15,915 bases of DNA from a virus. The stretch lies in the IMG/VR virus record IMGVR_UViG_3300050495_000032; one strand, written 5' to 3'. Under the pieces are notes generated by a model, which made no database searches, was not told the DNA's origin, and saw only the letters and a list, made by a program, of their open reading frames with translations. Positions 1 to 15,915 of the stretch are shown here, piece by piece; position 1 is the stretch's first letter; each line of letters starts with the position of its first letter. A program made the position numbers and the translations under genes.

Positions 1-127
1 TAAGGTCAGTGCCCTCAAACATATCCCTTATCGAATCTTCATTAAACTTACCGGCGCCGGCCAAACTATCTGAATAGCCGTACCCACCATGCCGCCAGTA
101 CATCGTAATATTCTCATCGGAGTATTT
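1..127. repeat. Terminal direct repeat, copy 1 (contig-end overlap of a circular molecule)
   Basis: Bases 1-127 are base-for-base identical to 15789-15915. The repeat is bounded by both window ends, and a minus-strand ORF reads in frame across the implied junction. Confidence 0.95.
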
Positions 128-9918: not shown

Positions 9919-10076
9919 CTCACAAAGGTTTATACAAGGAAGTTACGAATGGGGAAATATACCAACAATAGTAAGTTTACTAACGTTAAAACGCATCAGT
10001 AAAAAAATCATTACATTGGCCGTCCGCTTATTTTGGGCCAACCGTCGAAGTATTGCAGAAAAAAATATCTGTTATT

Positions 10077-10478
10077 TTACTGAAAATACCCACTCTGTCG
10101 ATGCAAAAGCACCTTTTTTATATCGTTTGGGCAAATTATTCTCCAATGTCCGGGTTCACCATGTACCGGTATTGAGAAACCGACTTGAAACATCTTCAAA
10201 CGCCGTTCCATACAGTCTTTATCTGTCAAATTGCGCCACCGGAGTAATTTCCACTCACTATCCATTACGTACTCACATTCGAGCGTCCACAGTTTACCGG
10301 CCGCGCCCATTTCCATCAACTCCTTTGCCACATCCGAGATATAGGATTTTGGCCCGTCGGGTACATCAAAGACCGGTTTTGGGTTTGTTTGCACCAACGT
10401 GTTTTTTTCCTGGATGTCTTTTTTTAATTGATCCATTCGCGCCTGTACTTCGGGCGTCGGTTTCTGCTCGTTGCTCAT
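10077..10478 (-). CDS. Hypothetical protein (133 aa); its 5' 113 nt overlap the Rep 3' end in another frame
   Basis: ATG at 10478 and TAA at 10077. The composition is well balanced and not shadow-like. No motif recognised. Confidence 0.55.
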   Translation of the reverse strand: MSNEQKPTPEVQARMDQLKKDIQEKNTLVQTNPKPVFDVPDGPKSYISDVAKELMEMGAAGKLWTLECEYVMDSEWKLLRWRNLTDKDCMERRLKMFQVGFSIPVHGEPGHWRIICPNDIKKVLLHRQSGYFQ

Positions 10479-11730
10479 TGTCGAAGGTTGTTTGAATGAA
10501 AGAATTTAGTATGTATAGGTGCTTTTCCAGCAAGGGCGGCGGCCCAAATAACCAGGGTACGAATGTTGCAAAGTTCATTTTGAACACGCGAACCCGATTA
10601 AGGAAAGATCCAAAGCCCAGGTTCTTAAATTCGGTAAGTGTAAATGTGACAGCTGTAAAAAGGCATGAAAAGCCACGGCTATTATGAAACGCCAAATGCG
10701 GGAACTCACTATCGTTTTTGGTAATGTACTTCGTCAGGTAGTTTGCCAATGCAACAGATCCCTTTTTGATTGCGAAATTGATAACGCGTTTTGTTTTGCG
10801 ATGCTTTGAAATGTCGACGCCGTTGTATTTTGAAATAGAAGGTAGGTAGTAGGTTTTGCCGTTATTGCCACATACAGCCCCAGGCATTGAACCCTTTTTG
10901 GCAAGGTTTTTTAAGATCTCCCGCATTCGAAGATTGGCATGGTGCACGTTCATGTAATGGGGAATAGCTATGTGAAAGTGTATTGTGTTTGTGGGATCCT
11001 TATCTTCTTTTAAACGGTCACCGGTTTGACGTTCAGCAATCCATAGGTAGTCCTTTAGCTTATTGGTTTGTCGTAACGTAGTTAACCACGTATTAAAAGC
11101 CTGATAGCAAACGTTATCGGGAGTATGAGCCGGGAACGTCACCGTCCAAAAAAACAGTTCTTTTTTGCCTTTTTGGGTGTTCAGGTAAGCCAAAATCCGA
11201 CCCCTTACCTTCGCCTTGTTAACCCTATACGACTTTTTCCGGTCTTTTTTAGTCAAAAGTTGTTCAGAATCAGGGGAAAAATTTTCTTGTGTGCCAATTT
11301 CTTGCGATATTGCACCCGAACCGCATAAATAGCGATCCGGTTCATCTAATAACAATAACTTTTGAAGGTTGGGGGGCGTCCCGACCTTCTTTTTTTTGCC
11401 CTTGTCTGTATCTGGTTTCTGCGATTCTTTTTTCAACTCTTTACTACTAAGCCATAAACGCCCATTGATGTCAACCGCGCACGCTTCAGATCCTTTGTAA
11501 CGCTCCTTAAACCTGCGTTCATGCAGGAATGTAACGCCCGTTGACGTTAGCTTTAGTTTTAGATCTGGATCCGACCCGCCGGTCATTGATGGTACTTCGC
11601 CTAACTTGATACCTGGAACATTTGGAACGCATGAACTGGGAATTTCGCCGCGAATTTTGCGGATATACGGTGGAGGCGGCTGTAAAGAGAAAGCAGATAG
11701 CGGATTGCTATCACATGCAGGGCGTTGCAT
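10366..11730 (-). CDS. Rolling-circle replication initiator (HUH endonuclease, phiX174 gpA-like two-tyrosine type)
   Basis: Motif I is FFWTVTF (11134-11154). Motif II, the HUH motif, is HFHIAI (10963-10980). Motif III is YLTKYITK (10717-10740), with two Tyr separated by three residues. The motifs occur in the canonical order. The ~190-aa N-terminal extension carries a Lys-rich tract. Confidence 0.85.
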   Translation of the reverse strand: MQRPACDSNPLSAFSLQPPPPYIRKIRGEIPSSCVPNVPGIKLGEVPSMTGGSDPDLKLKLTSTGVTFLHERRFKERYKGSEACAVDINGRLWLSSKELKKESQKPDTDKGKKKKVGTPPNLQKLLLLDEPDRYLCGSGAISQEIGTQENFSPDSEQLLTKKDRKKSYRVNKAKVRGRILAYLNTQKGKKELFFWTVTFPAHTPDNVCYQAFNTWLTTLRQTNKLKDYLWIAERQTGDRLKEDKDPTNTIHFHIAIPHYMNVHHANLRMREILKNLAKKGSMPGAVCGNNGKTYYLPSISKYNGVDISKHRKTKRVINFAIKKGSVALANYLTKYITKNDSEFPHLAFHNSRGFSCLFTAVTFTLTEFKNLGFGSFLNRVRVFKMNFATFVPWLFGPPPLLEKHLYILNSFIQTTFDNEQRAETDARSTGANGSIKKRHPGKKHVGANKPKTGL

Positions 11731-12477: not shown

Positions 12478-12615
12478 TTATTCCTGGAATGCCACCAACA
12501 GATCTGCGTCTACCACTTGCCACATATCCGGGGTAAATGGAATCAGTTCAAATTGATCAGGATCCGCTACGGTGCCCCACGGCAAAGTTTCGAAAGATAG
12601 AATAGTAAGGATCAT
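12478..12615 (-). CDS. Possible 45-aa ORF (MILTILSFETLPWGTVADPDQFELIPFTPDMWQVVDADLLVAFQE)
   Basis: Hand-translated and below the track cutoff. It fills part of an otherwise empty 285-nt gap. An imperfect hairpin (12445-12478) follows it. Confidence 0.3.
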   Translation of the reverse strand: MILTILSFETLPWGTVADPDQFELIPFTPDMWQVVDADLLVAFQE

Positions 12616-12658
12616 TCCCAAAGTTACGGGGTCACCATGGAAAAAGAATGATCATTCA

Positions 12659-12862
12659 CTAATCGCTATTGCCTAACAGGTAGTAAGGTTCGTCGGCCGT
12701 TTCCGGGCCGTCGTAATCGCCGTCACTCATACAGTCCTGTATAGCCATAATCGTAATTTCCTTAATGCTCAGTTCCGGTTTCTTCTCTTTTTTCCGATTT
12801 TGTTTTTTCCTACGCTCCATTTGCTTCATGGCAGCGTCGTTGAATAGATATAACTGCACCAT
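12659..12862 (-). CDS. Hypothetical small protein (67 aa, basic KKQNRKKEKK tract then an acidic tail)
   Basis: The track ORF start at 12916 lies inside the large palindrome. I trimmed it to the ATG at 12862 (MVQLYLF). It ends TAG-TGA. Confidence 0.5.
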   Translation of the reverse strand: MVQLYLFNDAAMKQMERRKKQNRKKEKKPELSIKEITIMAIQDCMSDGDYDGPETADEPYYLLGNSD

Positions 12863-12876
12863 AGTAGCGTATTTTG

Positions 12877-12993
12877 GCCAACATAGCCTATAAACTTTCC
12901 TTCTGCATTGACGCACCGTTGATTTTGCCGGGCACCCCGGACAAAAATCAACAGTCCGTCAATGCAGAAGGAAAGTTTATAGGCTATGTTGGC
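12877..12993. repeat. 117-nt near-perfect palindrome (long hairpin/cruciform); candidate replication origin element
   Basis: The outer arms 12877-12913 and 12957-12993 are perfect 37-nt reverse complements. The inner arms are 12918-12926 and 12944-12952 (9 bp). The apex is ccggg-cac-cccgg (12928-12940). The element is essentially intergenic. Confidence 0.9.
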
Positions 12994-13247
12994 ATTTCGG
13001 AATTGTCGAAAGGATCTATCTTTCCTAAAACGGCATCGTTATACGCATCCACGCCCCGTTTAACAGCCTTTTCTGTTCGGTCATCCATCTTCATTGCCAA
13101 CCAAACACTAACCGCTAAATCGGCTTTATTACCATCCGTGCGTACAAATACCCTTCGATCACCGTCGGGTTGTTCGTAGAAAACAATCTCAATACGAGAT
13201 CTTCGCACGCTACCGGTCAGCAAACCCCAAAGTTTAGCCCTGATCAT
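12984..13247 (-). CDS. Hypothetical protein (87 aa)
   Basis: ATG start. The TAG stop and the last 10 nt lie inside the right arm of the palindrome. Confidence 0.55.
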   Translation of the reverse strand: MIRAKLWGLLTGSVRRSRIEIVFYEQPDGDRRVFVRTDGNKADLAVSVWLAMKMDDRTEKAVKRGVDAYNDAVLGKIDPFDNSEMPT

Positions 13248-13249
13248 AG

Positions 13250-13489
13250 TTAGAAGTTTTCAGGTTTGATATCAAAAAGGTGAGCAGCGCCCCGTTTCTC
13301 AACTGTATAATAAATACCGTAGAAATTAATAAAAGTCTCAATGTAAGTTACCACATCCCCAGGGTGCAGCGTAAATTCCGGTTCATTTTCCTTTTGATAC
13401 CCTTTACGGGGGTATTTGGTCATTTCGTGGGTGAAACGACTACAGACGCACTCTTTTTTTACGGTCAGTTTATCGCCTGCAATCGGCAT
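13250..13489 (-). CDS. Hypothetical protein (79 aa)
   Basis: The track start at 13495 is TTG, so I prefer the ATG at 13489 (MPIAGDK). The TAA stop lies 2 nt before the next ATG. Confidence 0.55.
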   Translation of the reverse strand: MPIAGDKLTVKKECVCSRFTHEMTKYPRKGYQKENEPEFTLHPGDVVTYIETFINFYGIYYTVEKRGAAHLFDIKPENF

Positions 13490-13592
13490 ACGCAAAAATT
13501 TAATCGTTTAACCATCAAGCCGTTAACTTTCCATTTTTTGAAAAGTTCGGCGCTTTATAAATCCATAGGGCCCGAAATTCAAAAGTTCATCC

Positions 13593-13931
13593 CTAGTAAG
13601 CTAACAGTAATTGATCTTTTAACCTGTTCGCCTCGTTAAGCACAGACTGGGCATCGGGCCAGTTTTCCAATGAATCGTAAGCATGTGCTGTATCAAACCC
13701 GAACACCCACATACCCCGGCACTCATCCGGGCACCAATCCTGCCATGTACCTGAATAAGTCAACCCACCATGAACTTCTATACCCTCGATACTACCGTAA
13801 TCCAACCCAAAATACGGGTGATCGGAAGGAATCGCTACATACCCGTTACCCCAACCGCCTATCAATGGGAATCTTGAAGTAACAGCAAAAGCAACCAATC
13901 TATCAGCCTTTGTTAGTGCCCCCTTTGTCAT
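13593..13931 (-). CDS. Hypothetical protein with a GGWGNGYV...VHGGLTY...GFDTAHAYD motif set (112 aa)
   Basis: The His/Asp-containing motifs look like a small conserved enzyme-like domain, but I cannot name a family from memory. It ends TAG-GGA-TGA. Confidence 0.55.
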   Translation of the reverse strand: MTKGALTKADRLVAFAVTSRFPLIGGWGNGYVAIPSDHPYFGLDYGSIEGIEVHGGLTYSGTWQDWCPDECRGMWVFGFDTAHAYDSLENWPDAQSVLNEANRLKDQLLLAY

Positions 13932-13947
13932 AATACTATAAGTTGAT

Positions 13948-14253
13948 TTATGTTAATTGAGCAGTCAACCGGTCATTTTGCCCCCGGTGCCATATAATGG
14001 AATGGTAGCGCACATTGGTGCCCGAATAAAATTCAACTACGTTTTTTACATCGGTGTACCCAAAACCTGGTTTGTCCTGACAGGGATCACAGATGTACGC
14101 AACCCCCTGATCCTTTGCCCCTGTGATGAAATTACCCTATTTAGGAAACCCCCAGGTTATTGTTACCGGCACTTGTACCATGGTCGGGATACCGGTCAGG
14201 GGACCGCCACAGGCGCAACACCGGCAATACTTTACAATTTCTTCAGCCAACAT
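13948..14253 (-). CDS. Zinc-ribbon-like ORF (101 codons) interrupted by a single in-frame TAG at 14137-14139
   Basis: Hand-translated: MLAEEIVKYCRCCACGGPLTGIPTMVQVPVTITWGFPK-TAG-GNFITGAKDQGVAYICDPCQDKPGFGYTDVKNVVEFYSGTNVRYHSIIWHRGQNDRLTAQLT-TAA. It exactly fills the only large gap (13932-14271) in the gene array. The CxxC pairs lie on either side of the TAG, and the second half has no ATG. Confidence 0.45.
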
Positions 14254-14271
14254 CGGTTCAATTTTTAAAGG

Positions 14272-14481
14272 TTATAAAAGCATTTCAGCGCGTTCAGGGG
14301 GCAGGTTGTTTCTGAATTGCCGCCATTGGCCGGCAAGCGTACCCAACACCCCCCTGGTATCGTTGTAGATCTGTTTTTCGTTAAGATCTGCGGCGTCGCG
14401 TAATGCGCCAACTTTGTCGTATATCTTATCGATATCTTCCGCAATGTCCATAACGTAATCGTAGTAAGACTTTTTTGTCAT
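14272..14481 (-). CDS. Hypothetical helical protein (69 aa)
   Basis: ATG start and TAA stop, 5 nt downstream of the preceding gene. Confidence 0.55.
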   Translation of the reverse strand: MTKKSYYDYVMDIAEDIDKIYDKVGALRDAADLNEKQIYNDTRGVLGTLAGQWRQFRNNLPPERAEMLL

Positions 14482-14486
14482 ATGTT

Positions 14487-14786
14487 TTAATCAAAAGGTT
14501 TCTGTTTACCAAACCCGGAATAATACTCATGGATCAACGGCTTACTGTGAAACGCCCGGATAATTCCAACACCACCCTTAAATATTAACTGCACAATTTT
14601 AGCCGGTTCTTCATTTGCACACCCCTTTAAGCTATCCGCATAGATACATACCGGGTAACCGTTGCGTTGTTCGTTGGTGTCTATAAAGCCGAAAAAGGTA
14701 CGAGCAGAAACACCGTACTTTTTGCATAGCTCATCCAATTCTTTATCAAAACTGTTGATGTGGTCAATTGCCTCTTCACGTGTCAT
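14487..14786 (-). CDS. Hypothetical protein (99 aa), probable paralogue of 14808..15068
   Basis: It shares MT(R/D)(E/R)E...(L/V)C(K/E)K...x29...DSL(K/N)G spacing with its neighbour. Confidence 0.55.
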   Translation of the reverse strand: MTREEAIDHINSFDKELDELCKKYGVSARTFFGFIDTNEQRNGYPVCIYADSLKGCANEEPAKIVQLIFKGGVGIIRAFHSKPLIHEYYSGFGKQKPFD

Positions 14787-14807
14787 GGTAAAATCTTGAT
14801 TTTATGG

Positions 14808-15068
14808 TTAGTTGCCGTCACTGTCCGGATTAGTTAGCCCTTTACTACGTGTCGGGTTCTCCCATCCAGCATCCCGCAGCATAGTGTTTAGCCTGACAAC
14901 AATGTGCTTAAGAAATGTACCGTTTAAACTATCTGTTGGATCAAAGACAGCGAAAGTATTGTCCGTACTATCCGGAGAGATCCAAAGCCCAGCCAAACCG
15001 CGCAGTTTGTGCTTTTCACACACTGCACCGAGATCTTTGTAAACTTCCTGCATTTCCCGATCTGTCAT
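14808..15068 (-). CDS. Hypothetical protein (86 aa)
   Basis: The track start at 15104 lies inside a terminator hairpin. I trimmed it to the ATG at 15068 (MTDREMQEV). Confidence 0.55.
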   Translation of the reverse strand: MTDREMQEVYKDLGAVCEKHKLRGLAGLWISPDSTDNTFAVFDPTDSLNGTFLKHIVVRLNTMLRDAGWENPTRSKGLTNPDSDGN

Positions 15069-15093
15069 ATAGATAAAATTTGTTTGTAGTAAT

Positions 15094-15122
15094 AAAAAGC
15101 GCAAGGTGGAAACCCCGCGCTT
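15094..15122 (-). terminator. Intrinsic terminator (8-bp stem with two G-U pairs on the minus-strand RNA, T5 run)
   Basis: Minus strand reads GCGCGGGG-TTTCCA-CCTTGCGC-TTTTTATT. The two mismatches on the plus strand are G-U wobbles on the minus strand. Confidence 0.65.
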
Positions 15123-15183
15123 ATGTGATAAAATCCATTCTAAAGATAGGGGCAGATGCAGAAGTACCCACCCGTAGCTGTTA

Positions 15184-15205
15184 GACCAAAACAGGGCCGA
15201 AGCCC
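15184..15205 (-). terminator. Small UUCG-tetraloop hairpin plus T-run directly after the stop codon
   Basis: Minus strand reads GGGC-TTCG-GCCC-TGTTTTGG, starting 1 nt after the TAA at 15207-15209. Confidence 0.5.
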
Positions 15206-15206
15206 A

Positions 15207-15431
15207 TTAAACCAATAATAAAAGAACGTGACGGTAATTAGTTCCCGGCATTACCGTTATTTCGTTTTGAACATCTTCACACAACAGGACAGGGCAGGCA
15301 TTTTCTGAATGCCTGACAAACCGGAATATACGGTTTGGGTGGTAAGAATCTCCCGTAACCGCAGATATCAAATAAGTGCTCTTATCAACGAACTCAAACC
15401 GCTGTCCTTCTTTCAATTCCTTCAAAAGCAT
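15207..15431 (-). CDS. Hypothetical protein (74 aa)
   Basis: ATG start and TAA stop, followed by two terminator-like hairpins. Confidence 0.55.
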   Translation of the reverse strand: MLLKELKEGQRFEFVDKSTYLISAVTGDSYHPNRIFRFVRHSENACPVLLCEDVQNEITVMPGTNYRHVLLLLV

Positions 15432-15463
15432 ACCAATCTATTATAAAGTTGTTTGTTAAAGGT

Positions 15464-15488
15464 AACGACCGGGAATTAACCGGTCGTT
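15464..15488. other. Perfect 9-bp hairpin (aacgaccgg-gaattaa-ccggtcgtt) in the 223-nt intergenic region
   Basis: Seen directly. There is no T-run on the minus strand and only a weak one (tgttt) on the plus strand. Function unknown. Confidence 0.5.
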
Positions 15489-15654
15489 TGTTTCCATGTG
15501 TACTACCCAAAAAATGGAATCTCGTTTGGTTGATACGGGCAACGGATTAATGATTGCAATGACTGTAGCGAAAAGAAACTAACTGCCGGGGCTACAGTGT
15601 CGGATCTAACTTAACAGGCCCCCACGGCCCAAATTTTTCAGTCTGAAACCCCCC

Positions 15655-15915
15655 TTATTCCTGATGAGGATGATGCGCAATTTCTTTCGGCACGAACTGG
15701 GGCAGGTACTGGTAGTTCGCTATAACAGGATACAATCCCAGTAAAGCAAACGCGTCGCGTGTGCATGGTACAGGCAGCGCAATTTCTATAAGGTCAGTGC
15801 CCTCAAACATATCCCTTATCGAATCTTCATTAAACTTACCGGCGCCGGCCAAACTATCTGAATAGCCGTACCCACCATGCCGCCAGTACATCGTAATATT
15901 CTCATCGGAGTATTT
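15655..15915 (-). CDS. Hypothetical protein, C-terminal part of the junction-spanning ORF (same gene as 1..208)
   Basis: Track ORF 15655..15891 stays open to the window end. Through the circular junction it continues to the ATG at 208, giving 113 aa in total. Confidence 0.6.
   Translation of the reverse strand, partial: KYSDENITMYWRHGGYGYSDSLAGAGKFNEDSIRDMFEGTDLIEIALPVPCTRDAFALLGLYPVIANYQYLPQFVPKEIAHHPHQE
15789..15915. repeat. Terminal direct repeat, copy 2
   Basis: Identical to 1-127. The unique genome length is therefore 15,788 bp. Confidence 0.95.

What the first reader, a model, noticed from the sequence alone, without database searches (positions are those of the whole stretch)
13948..14253. 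Zinc-ribbon-like ORF split by one in-frame TAG: readthrough, recoding or a fresh nonsense allele
The only sizeable hole in the minus-strand gene array (13932-14271) is filled exactly by a 101-codon frame. The frame runs from the ATG at 14253 to the TAA at 13948-13950 and is interrupted once by TAG at 14137-14139. One CxxC pair (CRCCAC) lies before the TAG and the other (CDPC) after it, so a four-Cys ribbon exists only if the stop is read through. The 63-codon distal half contains no ATG at all. That would leave about 190 nt non-coding in a genome that otherwise overlaps its stops and starts.
Basis: seen in the sequence. Interest (0 to 1): 0.65.

Follow-up and report, generated by a model that had tools for sequence, protein, structure and literature searches.

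The report
Recent amber mutation in phage gene
A small, conserved cysteine-rich gene of an uncultivated 15.8-kb circular phage carries a very recent single-base change (TGG tryptophan to TAG stop), so it is an ordinary nonsense allele and not a recoding or read-through signal.

Summary
A 101-codon minus-strand frame (14253 to 13948) is interrupted once by TAG at 14137-14139, with one Cys knuckle on each side.

The cause is a single G-to-A change at 14138.
- Two contigs from a sister sample match the window over 3.2 to 3.5 kb with no other difference. They read TGG (Trp) there.
- Every more distant relative retrieved at DNA level also reads TGG.
- About 98 representative homologues cross the site in one uninterrupted ORF.

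The intact protein models as one compact domain (pLDDT 92). Residue 39 lies in a strand. The distal half holds the second Cys knuckle and several of the near-invariant residues.

Genome-wide recoding is excluded.
- Six of 29 genes end in TAG.
- No other gene has an internal stop.
- No tRNA is encoded.

Programmed read-through is unsupported. No relative has a stop at this site, and there is no downstream RNA structure.

An assembly error is unlikely. Six of the nine public contigs carrying the identical neighbouring gene have TAG, and all five of the 10-20 kb ones do. The three of those five that could be compared match the window at every base. The mutant is therefore the dominant, evidently viable genotype.

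Best reading: a fresh loss-of-function amber allele of a dispensable accessory gene. Host suppression, or selection for the loss, cannot be excluded.

The parts
13948..14253 (-). Interrupted 101-codon gene for a small Cys-rich protein of an unnamed family. The ancestral intact product is P0001.
   Evidence: Translation. An identical 101-aa protein with W39 is found on L001/L002. 98 representative homologues match across residues about 4-86. The AlphaFold2 model is one compact domain with pLDDT 92.4.
14137..14139 (-). Amber codon TAG at codon 39. The single-base difference is at 14138: A in the window, G in the intact allele, read on the minus strand.
   Evidence: This is the only mismatch between the window and L001 (3,489 nt) and L002 (3,171 nt). 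L010, L009 and L003 also read TGG.
14137..14253 (-). Truncated ORF actually translatable in this allele: 38 residues (helix 3-9, first Cys knuckle C10/C12/C13/C15, strand 24-31) plus the stop.
   Evidence: The exact 38-aa product is called on 6 public contigs.
13948..14136 (-). Distal 62 codons plus TAA, now untranslated. They encode G40, N41, A50, A52, C55-D-x-C58, E74, Y83 and H84.
   Evidence: Column conservation. dN/dS is 0.07-0.14 among relatives. There is no in-frame ATG; the only in-frame starts are GTG at codon 80 and TTG at codon 96.
14209..14226 (-). First Cys knuckle, C10-R-C12-C13-A-C15.
   Evidence: C12 is present in 96/98, C13 in 87/98 and C15 in 77/98 family members.
14080..14091 (-). 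Second Cys knuckle, C55-D-P-C58, downstream of the stop.
   Evidence: C55 is C in 80/98 (H in 17) and C58 is C in 85/98. C15 changing to T/S goes with C55 changing to H (16 of 17 such members), and 12 of the 17 also lack C58.
14272..14481 (-). Upstream neighbour, a 69-aa protein of unknown function. It is syntenic in L003, L009 and L010.
   Evidence: It served as the anchor for counting alleles.
13593..13931 (-). Downstream neighbour, a 112-aa protein (PHROG 2164, unknown function). Its ATG lies 16 nt after the TAA of the interrupted gene, so premature termination could affect it through polarity.
   Evidence: (phrog_2164, E = 9e-17). The polarity effect is an inference, not a test.

Best explanation
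The TAG is a very recent nonsense mutation. The change is TGG to TAG (W39amber), one G:C-to-A:T transition at window position 14138. It lies in a small conserved accessory gene of an uncultivated circular phage-like genome of 15,788 bp.

Under the standard bacterial code, which this genome uses, translation ends after 38 residues. The peptide lacks the second Cys knuckle and about 60% of a single compact domain, so the protein is lost. The distal 62 codons look intact only because no time has passed for them to decay.

The mutant genotype assembles as complete circular genomes and outnumbers the intact allele among public assemblies. The gene is therefore dispensable under those conditions.

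Shown: the one-base difference, the ancestral state, the conservation of the full-length protein, TAG acting as a stop elsewhere in the genome, and replication of the allele across assemblies.

Inferred: loss of function, dispensability, and that no suppression occurs in the host.
For: (1) L001 (ENA ERZ27257623) and L002 (JGI 3300006051) match the window over 3,489 and 3,171 nt with one mismatch, at 14138, giving TGG.

(2) The outgroups at 89%, 84% and 66% DNA identity (L010, L009, L003) all read TGG. The closest protein representatives (P0008-P0014) have W at this position. TGG is therefore ancestral.

(3) 98 representative proteins, mostly 90-120 aa, align across residues about 4-86 without interruption. 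W34 and P37 are invariant. N41, Y83 and H84 are present in at least 91 of the 98 sequences.

(4) dN/dS of the distal half among relatives is 0.07-0.14, lower than the proximal half at 0.13-0.48.

(5) AlphaFold2 with 98 sequences gives pLDDT 92.4 and pTM 0.80 for one domain. Residue 39 lies in strand 38-41.

(6) TAG is a working terminator here. Six of 29 genes end in TAG. For the two of these with a retrieved counterpart in L009 and/or L003, TAG sits at the same position. A second in-frame stop follows 0 to 11 codons after each. No other gene has an internal stop.

(7) There is no tRNA gene, no Rfam element, and no unusual RNA structure after the stop (z = 0.17).

(8) It is not an assembler artefact. 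Of the 9 public contigs carrying the identical upstream gene, 6 have the 38-aa product, 2 have the 101-aa product and 1 stops short of the site. The TAG contigs come from JGI, ENA (MEGAHIT k141) and Logan assemblies. The four that could be compared (L005; L006/L008; L007; L014) are 100% identical to the window.
Against: No reads were available, so allele frequencies within samples are unknown.

The named TAG assemblies may derive from only two or three read sets of one study. That the ERZ27257633 contig carries TAG is inferred from contig counts, not read directly.

As far as can be compared, the only difference between the two haplotypes is a nonsense change. A random substitution in that 3.5-kb stretch has only a 1.7-3.9% chance of being nonsense. 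This hints at selection rather than pure drift.

Position 39 is variable in the family (W 55/98, then M, S, H, A, V). A suppressed product with another residue there could still work, and the host's tRNA set is unknown.
Confidence: 0.8

Rival explanations
1. The amber codon is partly or fully suppressed in the natural host, by a suppressor tRNA or by near-cognate read-through. Some full-length protein is still made, and the allele acts as a lower-dosage or conditional version of the gene.
For: The TAG genotype is the dominant one and assembles as complete circles. Residue 39 tolerates several amino acids in the family. The distal half carries no further lesion.
Against: The absence of further lesions is expected anyway, because there is zero divergence elsewhere. 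Six other genes rely on TAG to terminate. The phage encodes no tRNA. No stimulatory RNA structure follows the stop. The flanks are identical to those of the TGG allele, so no read-through context can have evolved.
Confidence: 0.1
2. Loss of the protein is adaptive. The nonsense allele swept because the protein is costly or is the trigger or target of a host defence. It would then be an escape mutation rather than a neutral lesion. This is a sub-case of the best explanation and shares the same molecular event.
For: The only difference found between the two haplotypes is a nonsense change, with a prior chance of 1.7-3.9%. TAG contigs are complete and more numerous; TGG contigs are short, at 3.2-3.5 kb.
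Against: This rests on a single event. Only 3.5 of the 15.8 kb can be compared with the TGG haplotype. Contig length is a poor proxy for fitness. Nothing is known of the protein's function.
Confidence: 0.12
3. Sequencing or assembly error: the true sequence is TGG and the gene is intact.
For: The change is a single-base substitution next to a G run (TGGGG to TAGGG).
Against: The same base appears in 6 contigs made by at least three pipelines (JGI, ENA MEGAHIT k141, Logan), plus the window itself with its 127-nt overlap. Two different ENA analyses gave complete contigs (ERZ27252314, ERZ27257633). A consensus from contigs deep enough to close a circle does not carry random errors.
Confidence: 0.03
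4. Genome-wide reassignment of TAG to a sense codon, as in crAss-like and other recoded phages.
For: Gene starts lack Shine-Dalgarno motifs, which is compatible with a Bacteroidota host, the host group of many recoded phages. That reading is my inference.
Against: There is one internal TAG in 29 genes, and it lies in a small gene of the small-ORF block, not in a structural or lysis gene. Six genes end in TAG, and the two with retrieved relatives keep it at the same position. Reading TAG as sense merges no other ORFs and adds only about 190 nt of coding sequence. There is no suppressor tRNA. The sister genome has TGG.
Confidence: 0.01

Closest known systems
Classical amber (nonsense) mutants of phage genes and natural nonsense polymorphisms (young pseudogenes)
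   Same: A one-step change from a sense codon (TGG) to TAG. It yields a truncated product, an intact-looking distal reading frame and an otherwise identical genome. The phage stays viable because the gene is non-essential or because the host suppresses the stop.
   Different: This one was found in environmental assemblies, not selected in the laboratory. The gene belongs to an unnamed family of unknown function. The mutant is the majority genotype among the public assemblies.
Stop-codon reassignment in phages (TAG read as Gln in Crassvirales, Lak phages and phAss-1; PMC11210395, PMC10607447, PMC10879173)
   Same: An in-frame TAG in a phage gene whose product makes sense only if the codon is read.
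   Different: Recoded phages carry in-frame TAGs in many ORFs (41 in phAss-1, PMC10607447) and can utilize suppressor tRNAs (PMC10879173). Here there is one TAG, no tRNA, and TAG is used as a terminator.
Programmed stop-codon read-through, for example the Q-beta A1 protein (from my own knowledge)
   Same: A stop codon followed by an in-frame extension.
   Different: In programmed read-through the stop is conserved among relatives, and the short product is functional on its own. Here relatives have Trp, and the 38-residue product is a fragment of a single domain.
Zinc-ribbon and treble-clef small proteins (two CxxC knuckles)
   Same: Two Cys knuckles about 40 residues apart that co-vary across the family.
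   Different: P0001 matches no Pfam family, and only 1 of 98 members matches each zinc-ribbon model (PF08271 TFIIB zinc-binding; PF13240 zinc-ribbon). There is no PDB sequence or fold match. About one sixth of the family has replaced the Cys set with T/S...H. The domain is about 90 residues, larger than a ribbon.

Membership tests
Recent nonsense allele (young pseudogene) | The closest relatives carry a sense codon at the site, one mutational step away. | tested here: met
   TGG is found in L001/L002 (identical elsewhere), L010, L009 and L003.
Recent nonsense allele (young pseudogene) | The full-length product is a conserved protein under purifying selection on both sides of the stop. | tested here: met
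   98 representatives span the site. dN/dS is 0.07-0.14 for the distal half and 0.13-0.48 for the proximal half.
Recent nonsense allele (young pseudogene) | The allele is real in the population, not an assembly error. | tested here: met
   6 contigs from at least three pipelines carry it. Reads themselves were not available.
Recent nonsense allele (young pseudogene) | The stop really terminates translation in the host, with no suppression. | not testable with these tools
   The host is unknown. The phage has no tRNA.
Phage TAG reassignment (alternative code) | Many genes are interrupted by in-frame TAG, and coding density rises when TAG is read as sense. | tested here: not met
   One internal TAG in 29 genes. 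No other ORFs merge when TAG is read as sense.
Phage TAG reassignment (alternative code) | TAG is not used as a terminator. | tested here: not met
   6 of 29 genes end in TAG. For two of them the same position is TAG in L009 and/or L003.
Phage TAG reassignment (alternative code) | A suppressor tRNA (anticodon CUA) is encoded by the phage. | tested here: not met
   ARAGORN finds no tRNA. Rfam finds nothing.
Programmed read-through | The stop codon is conserved at the site among relatives. | tested here: not met
   All relatives retrieved at DNA level have TGG. The nearest protein representatives have W.
Programmed read-through | A stimulatory RNA structure or context lies 3' of the stop. | tested here: not met
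   The 116-nt fold gives z = 0.17 against shuffles. The flanks are identical to those of the TGG allele.
Zinc ribbon (Cys4 two-knuckle domain) | Two CxxC-type knuckles that behave as one unit. | tested here: met
   CxxC at residues 12-15 and 55-58. C15 co-varies with C55 (16 of 17 members), and 12 of those 17 also lack C58.
Zinc ribbon (Cys4 two-knuckle domain) | A match to a curated zinc-ribbon family or to a solved ribbon structure. | tested here: not met
   No Pfam, PHROG or NCBIfam hit for P0001. No PDB sequence hit. No Foldseek match with E <= 0.001.
Zinc ribbon (Cys4 two-knuckle domain) | Metal binding. | not testable with these tools
   This needs biochemistry.

The most novel reading that the evidence does not exclude
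The amber allele is not a neutral lesion. Either it was selected because loss of this conserved small protein lets the phage escape a host defence or a cost, or it is kept partly expressed by suppression in the host. The TGG/TAG pair would then be a natural on/off polymorphism of an unnamed protein family with an unmatched predicted fold.
Probability: 0.12. Interest if true: 0.5.

Novelty: new member of a known kind. Interest (0 to 1): 0.2.

Why it matters
The main value is as a caution. A single in-frame TAG in a compact phage genome looks like recoding, but here one comparison with a sister contig explains it as an ordinary nonsense polymorphism.

There are two modest positive points.

First, nature has supplied an isogenic pair, TGG and TAG, for a conserved and uncharacterised small Cys-rich protein. 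About 98 representative clusters exist. The family has no Pfam or PHROG entry, a confident structural model and no fold match. The knockout is evidently viable in the field, which says the gene is accessory.

Second, the only difference found between the two haplotypes is a nonsense change. That makes a test for selection on loss of function possible once the reads of the sample series are mapped.

Tried and rejected
Searches of cultured phages gave nothing: megablast of window 12500-15915, and tblastn of the 454-aa, 309-aa, P0001, P0095 and P0057 proteins.

Two scans of viral contigs found no relative.

The metagenome-contig scan gave only L004. This is a bacterial DnaJ-domain protein sharing the pattern-selected motif TWGFPKWG, and I rejected it as a relative.

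The genome-contig scan failed with the 98-sequence alignment. With a 20-sequence alignment it gave only a chance 14-residue match in an Oxalobacteraceae MAG, out of frame with the real gene.

P0034, a 667-aa hit, is a retroelement integrase with an H2C2 zinc domain and not a family member.

The first structure prediction, with 2 sequences, was useless at pLDDT 47. The second, with 98 sequences, was good.

The weak OB-fold/SSB entries in the fold searches have probability below 0.15 and were disregarded.

A paper search for the sample accessions found nothing, so the biome and the number of independent samples remain unknown.

I considered that the Logan contig L013 ends at a SNP bubble. It ends 5 nt before the SNP (its last base is 4 nt short of the base just before the SNP, where a de Bruijn bubble would break), so this is only a hint.

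Pyrrolysine was considered and dropped, because the ancestral codon is Trp in all relatives.

Full report
**Observation.** On the minus strand an ATG at 14253 opens a frame that ends at TAA 13948-13950. It is 101 codons long, with a single in-frame TAG at 14137-14139 (codon 39). The product reads MLAEEIVKYCRCCACGG...TWGFPK*GNFITG...YICDPCQ...RYH...LT. The frame fills the space between the 69-aa gene (14272-14481) and the 112-aa gene (13593-13931).

Two details of the description need correcting.
- This is not the only non-coding hole. Gaps of 447, 306, 285 and 223 nt exist elsewhere.
- The distal half lacks only in-frame ATGs. The in-frame alternative starts are GTG at codon 80 and TTG at codon 96, so no useful re-initiation product is possible.

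**The decisive comparison.** A search with the read-through protein returned P0001. It is 101 aa and identical to the window's product except for Trp at the stop position. The search also returned P0002 (58% identical, 85 aa), which has Trp there too. P0001 is encoded on L001 (ENA ERZ27257623, 3,507 bp) and L002 (JGI 3300006051, 3,171 bp). Both contigs match the window over their aligned length (3,489 and 3,171 nt) with exactly one mismatch, at window 14138. The window has A and the contigs have G in the sense of the gene, which is TAG against TGG. More distant relatives also read TGG: L010 (89% DNA identity), L009 (84%, on a 14.6-kb contig) and L003 (66%). TGG is therefore ancestral, and the window carries a one-step G:C-to-A:T transition, W39amber.

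**The genome.** L001 and L002 run across the window's ends, and the first 127 nt of the window equal its last 127 nt. The window is thus a complete circular genome of 15,788 bp. All of the genes used here lie on the minus strand. The recognisable ones are:
- a lysozyme-type endolysin at 951-1394 (phrog_7, PF00959);
- a weak head-protein match at 1899-2828 (phrog_613);
- a sub-threshold rolling-circle Rep-like match in the 454-aa protein (PF23343).

Nothing resembles a cultured phage.

**Is the full-length protein real?** Yes.
- An exhaustive profile search found 98 representative proteins with E <= 1e-3. Most are 90-120 aa and align across residues about 4-86 in one piece.
- W34 and P37 are invariant. 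C12, N41, Y83 and H84 are present in at least 91 of the 98 sequences. G40, A50, A52, C55, D56, C58 and E74 are strongly conserved. Several of these lie after the stop.
- Among the close relatives, dN/dS is 0.07-0.14 for the distal half and 0.13-0.48 for the proximal half.
- With the 98-sequence alignment, AlphaFold2 gives a single compact domain (pLDDT 92.4, pTM 0.80). Residue 39 lies in strand 38-41.
- The 38-residue product keeps only the N-terminal helix, the first Cys knuckle and one strand.
- The two knuckles behave as a unit. In all 17 members where C15 is T or S, C55 is no longer Cys: it is H in 16 and G in 1. In 12 of these 17, C58 is also lost. This fits a Cys4 site bridging the two halves.
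- The family has no Pfam, PHROG, NCBIfam or PDB sequence match and no Foldseek match with E <= 0.001 in PDB or BFVD. Its function is unknown.

**Recoding and read-through.** The genome uses TAG as a stop.
- Six of 29 genes end in TAG.
- For the two of these with a retrieved counterpart in L009 and/or L003, the TAG sits at the same position.
- Another in-frame stop follows 0 to 11 codons after each TAG.
- No other gene contains an internal stop, and reading TAG as sense merges no other ORFs.
- No tRNA gene and no Rfam family are present.

Phages with reassigned TAG show in-frame TAGs in many ORFs and can utilize suppressor tRNAs (PMC10607447, PMC11210395, PMC10879173). None of this applies here.

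For programmed read-through the stop should be conserved, and it is not. The 116 nt around and after the stop fold no better than shuffles (z = 0.17). The flanks are identical to those of the TGG allele, so no read-through context can have evolved.

**Error or real allele?** The exact 38-aa product is called on 6 public contigs. I grouped the 9 contigs that carry the identical upstream gene by their neighbouring proteins.

| Group | Contigs | Members |
|---|---|---|
| 38-aa product (TAG) | 6 | JGI 3300006042; ENA ERZ27252314; Logan SRR5460462; three not named by the tool |
| 101-aa product (TGG) | 2 | JGI 3300006051; ENA ERZ27257623 |
| Does not cover the site | 1 | L013 (Logan SRR5460455), which ends 5 nt before it |

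All five contigs of 10-20 kb fall in the TAG group. One of the unnamed three is, by inference, the complete 15,929-bp contig of ENA ERZ27257633. The TAG contigs that could be compared are 100% identical to the window over 8.6 to 15.8 kb. The allele is therefore the consensus of several assemblies made with different assemblers, and of at least two ENA analyses. It cannot be a random error. How many independent samples this represents could not be established.

**Interpretation.** The best-supported reading is a very recent amber mutation that truncates a conserved accessory protein. The mutant genome replicates well enough to give closed circular assemblies, so the gene is dispensable in that setting. 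The distal half looks intact because the two haplotypes have no other difference, so there has been no time for decay.

Two refinements remain open.
- The only difference found between the haplotypes is a nonsense change. A random substitution in this 3.5-kb stretch has a 3.2% chance of being nonsense, 1.7% for transitions and 3.9% for G:C-to-A:T. This is a weak hint, from a single event, that the loss was selected.
- Position 39 is variable in the family (W 55/98, M 11, S 6, H 6). A suppressed product could therefore function if the unknown host carried an amber suppressor. Against this, six other genes depend on TAG termination.

**Verdict.** This is a new instance of a well-known kind of event. 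Interest is low, apart from the natural isogenic pair it provides for an unnamed protein family.

Noticed in passing
window 1-127 and 15789-15915: The first and last 127 nt are identical, and contigs L001/L002 run across the junction. The window is a complete circular genome of 15,788 bp. A 113-aa gene spans the window ends (15655 through to 208).
   Followed up: yes
window 12877-12926 / 12944-12993: A large inverted repeat has 50-nt arms, 96% complementarity and a 17-nt loop. It lies in the 121-nt gap between the public gene calls 12659-12862 and 12984-13247, although its left arm overlaps the longer GTG-started ORF 12659-12916. It is a candidate replication origin or strong hairpin. Conservation in relatives was not tested.
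   Followed up: partly
whole window: The genome is almost entirely orphan. Only a lysozyme (951-1394), a weak head-protein hit (1899-2828), PHROG 2164 (13593-13931) and a sub-threshold Rep_ORF2-G2P hit (10366-11730) were found, with no match to any cultured phage. Gene starts have A/T-rich leaders without Shine-Dalgarno motifs, which suggests a Bacteroidota-like host. That host assignment is an inference.
   Followed up: partly
window 13948-14253 (protein P0001 and family A2): The intact protein belongs to an unnamed family of about 98 representative clusters. Its motif is CCxC...W..P.WGN..TG...A.A..CDxC...E(F)...YH. The AlphaFold2 model is confident (pLDDT 92) with no Foldseek match in PDB or BFVD, so the fold may be undescribed. 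One member (P0095) sits on a 19-kb contig with MCM/AAA and HTH genes (L021).
   Followed up: partly
L003 2104-2432: The homologue P0002 ends early at 85 aa. The DNA continues in another frame with ...KYHPITW..., matching the family. One base is missing in a T run. This is either a frameshift allele or a Logan assembly error.
   Followed up: no
L013 (Logan SRR5460455), end of the contig, = window 14143: This 930-bp contig from a sister run is identical to the window and stops 5 nt before the polymorphic base. That could be chance, or a sign that both alleles co-occur in that run. The end is 4 nt short of the base just before the SNP, where a clean de Bruijn bubble would break.
   Followed up: partly
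window 9919-10365: This is the largest gap in the minus-strand array, at 447 nt. It holds a 133-aa minus-strand ORF (10077-10478, which overlaps the start of the 454-aa gene region) and a 159-aa plus-strand ORF (10016-10495) that the public gene calls accept. Which of them is real, if either, is unclear.
   Followed up: no
L009 10001-10234: The gene caller started this relative's copy at Met25, giving 77 aa (P0006). The full 101-codon ORF with the same ATG is present upstream, so this is an annotation artefact and not a truncation.
   Followed up: yes
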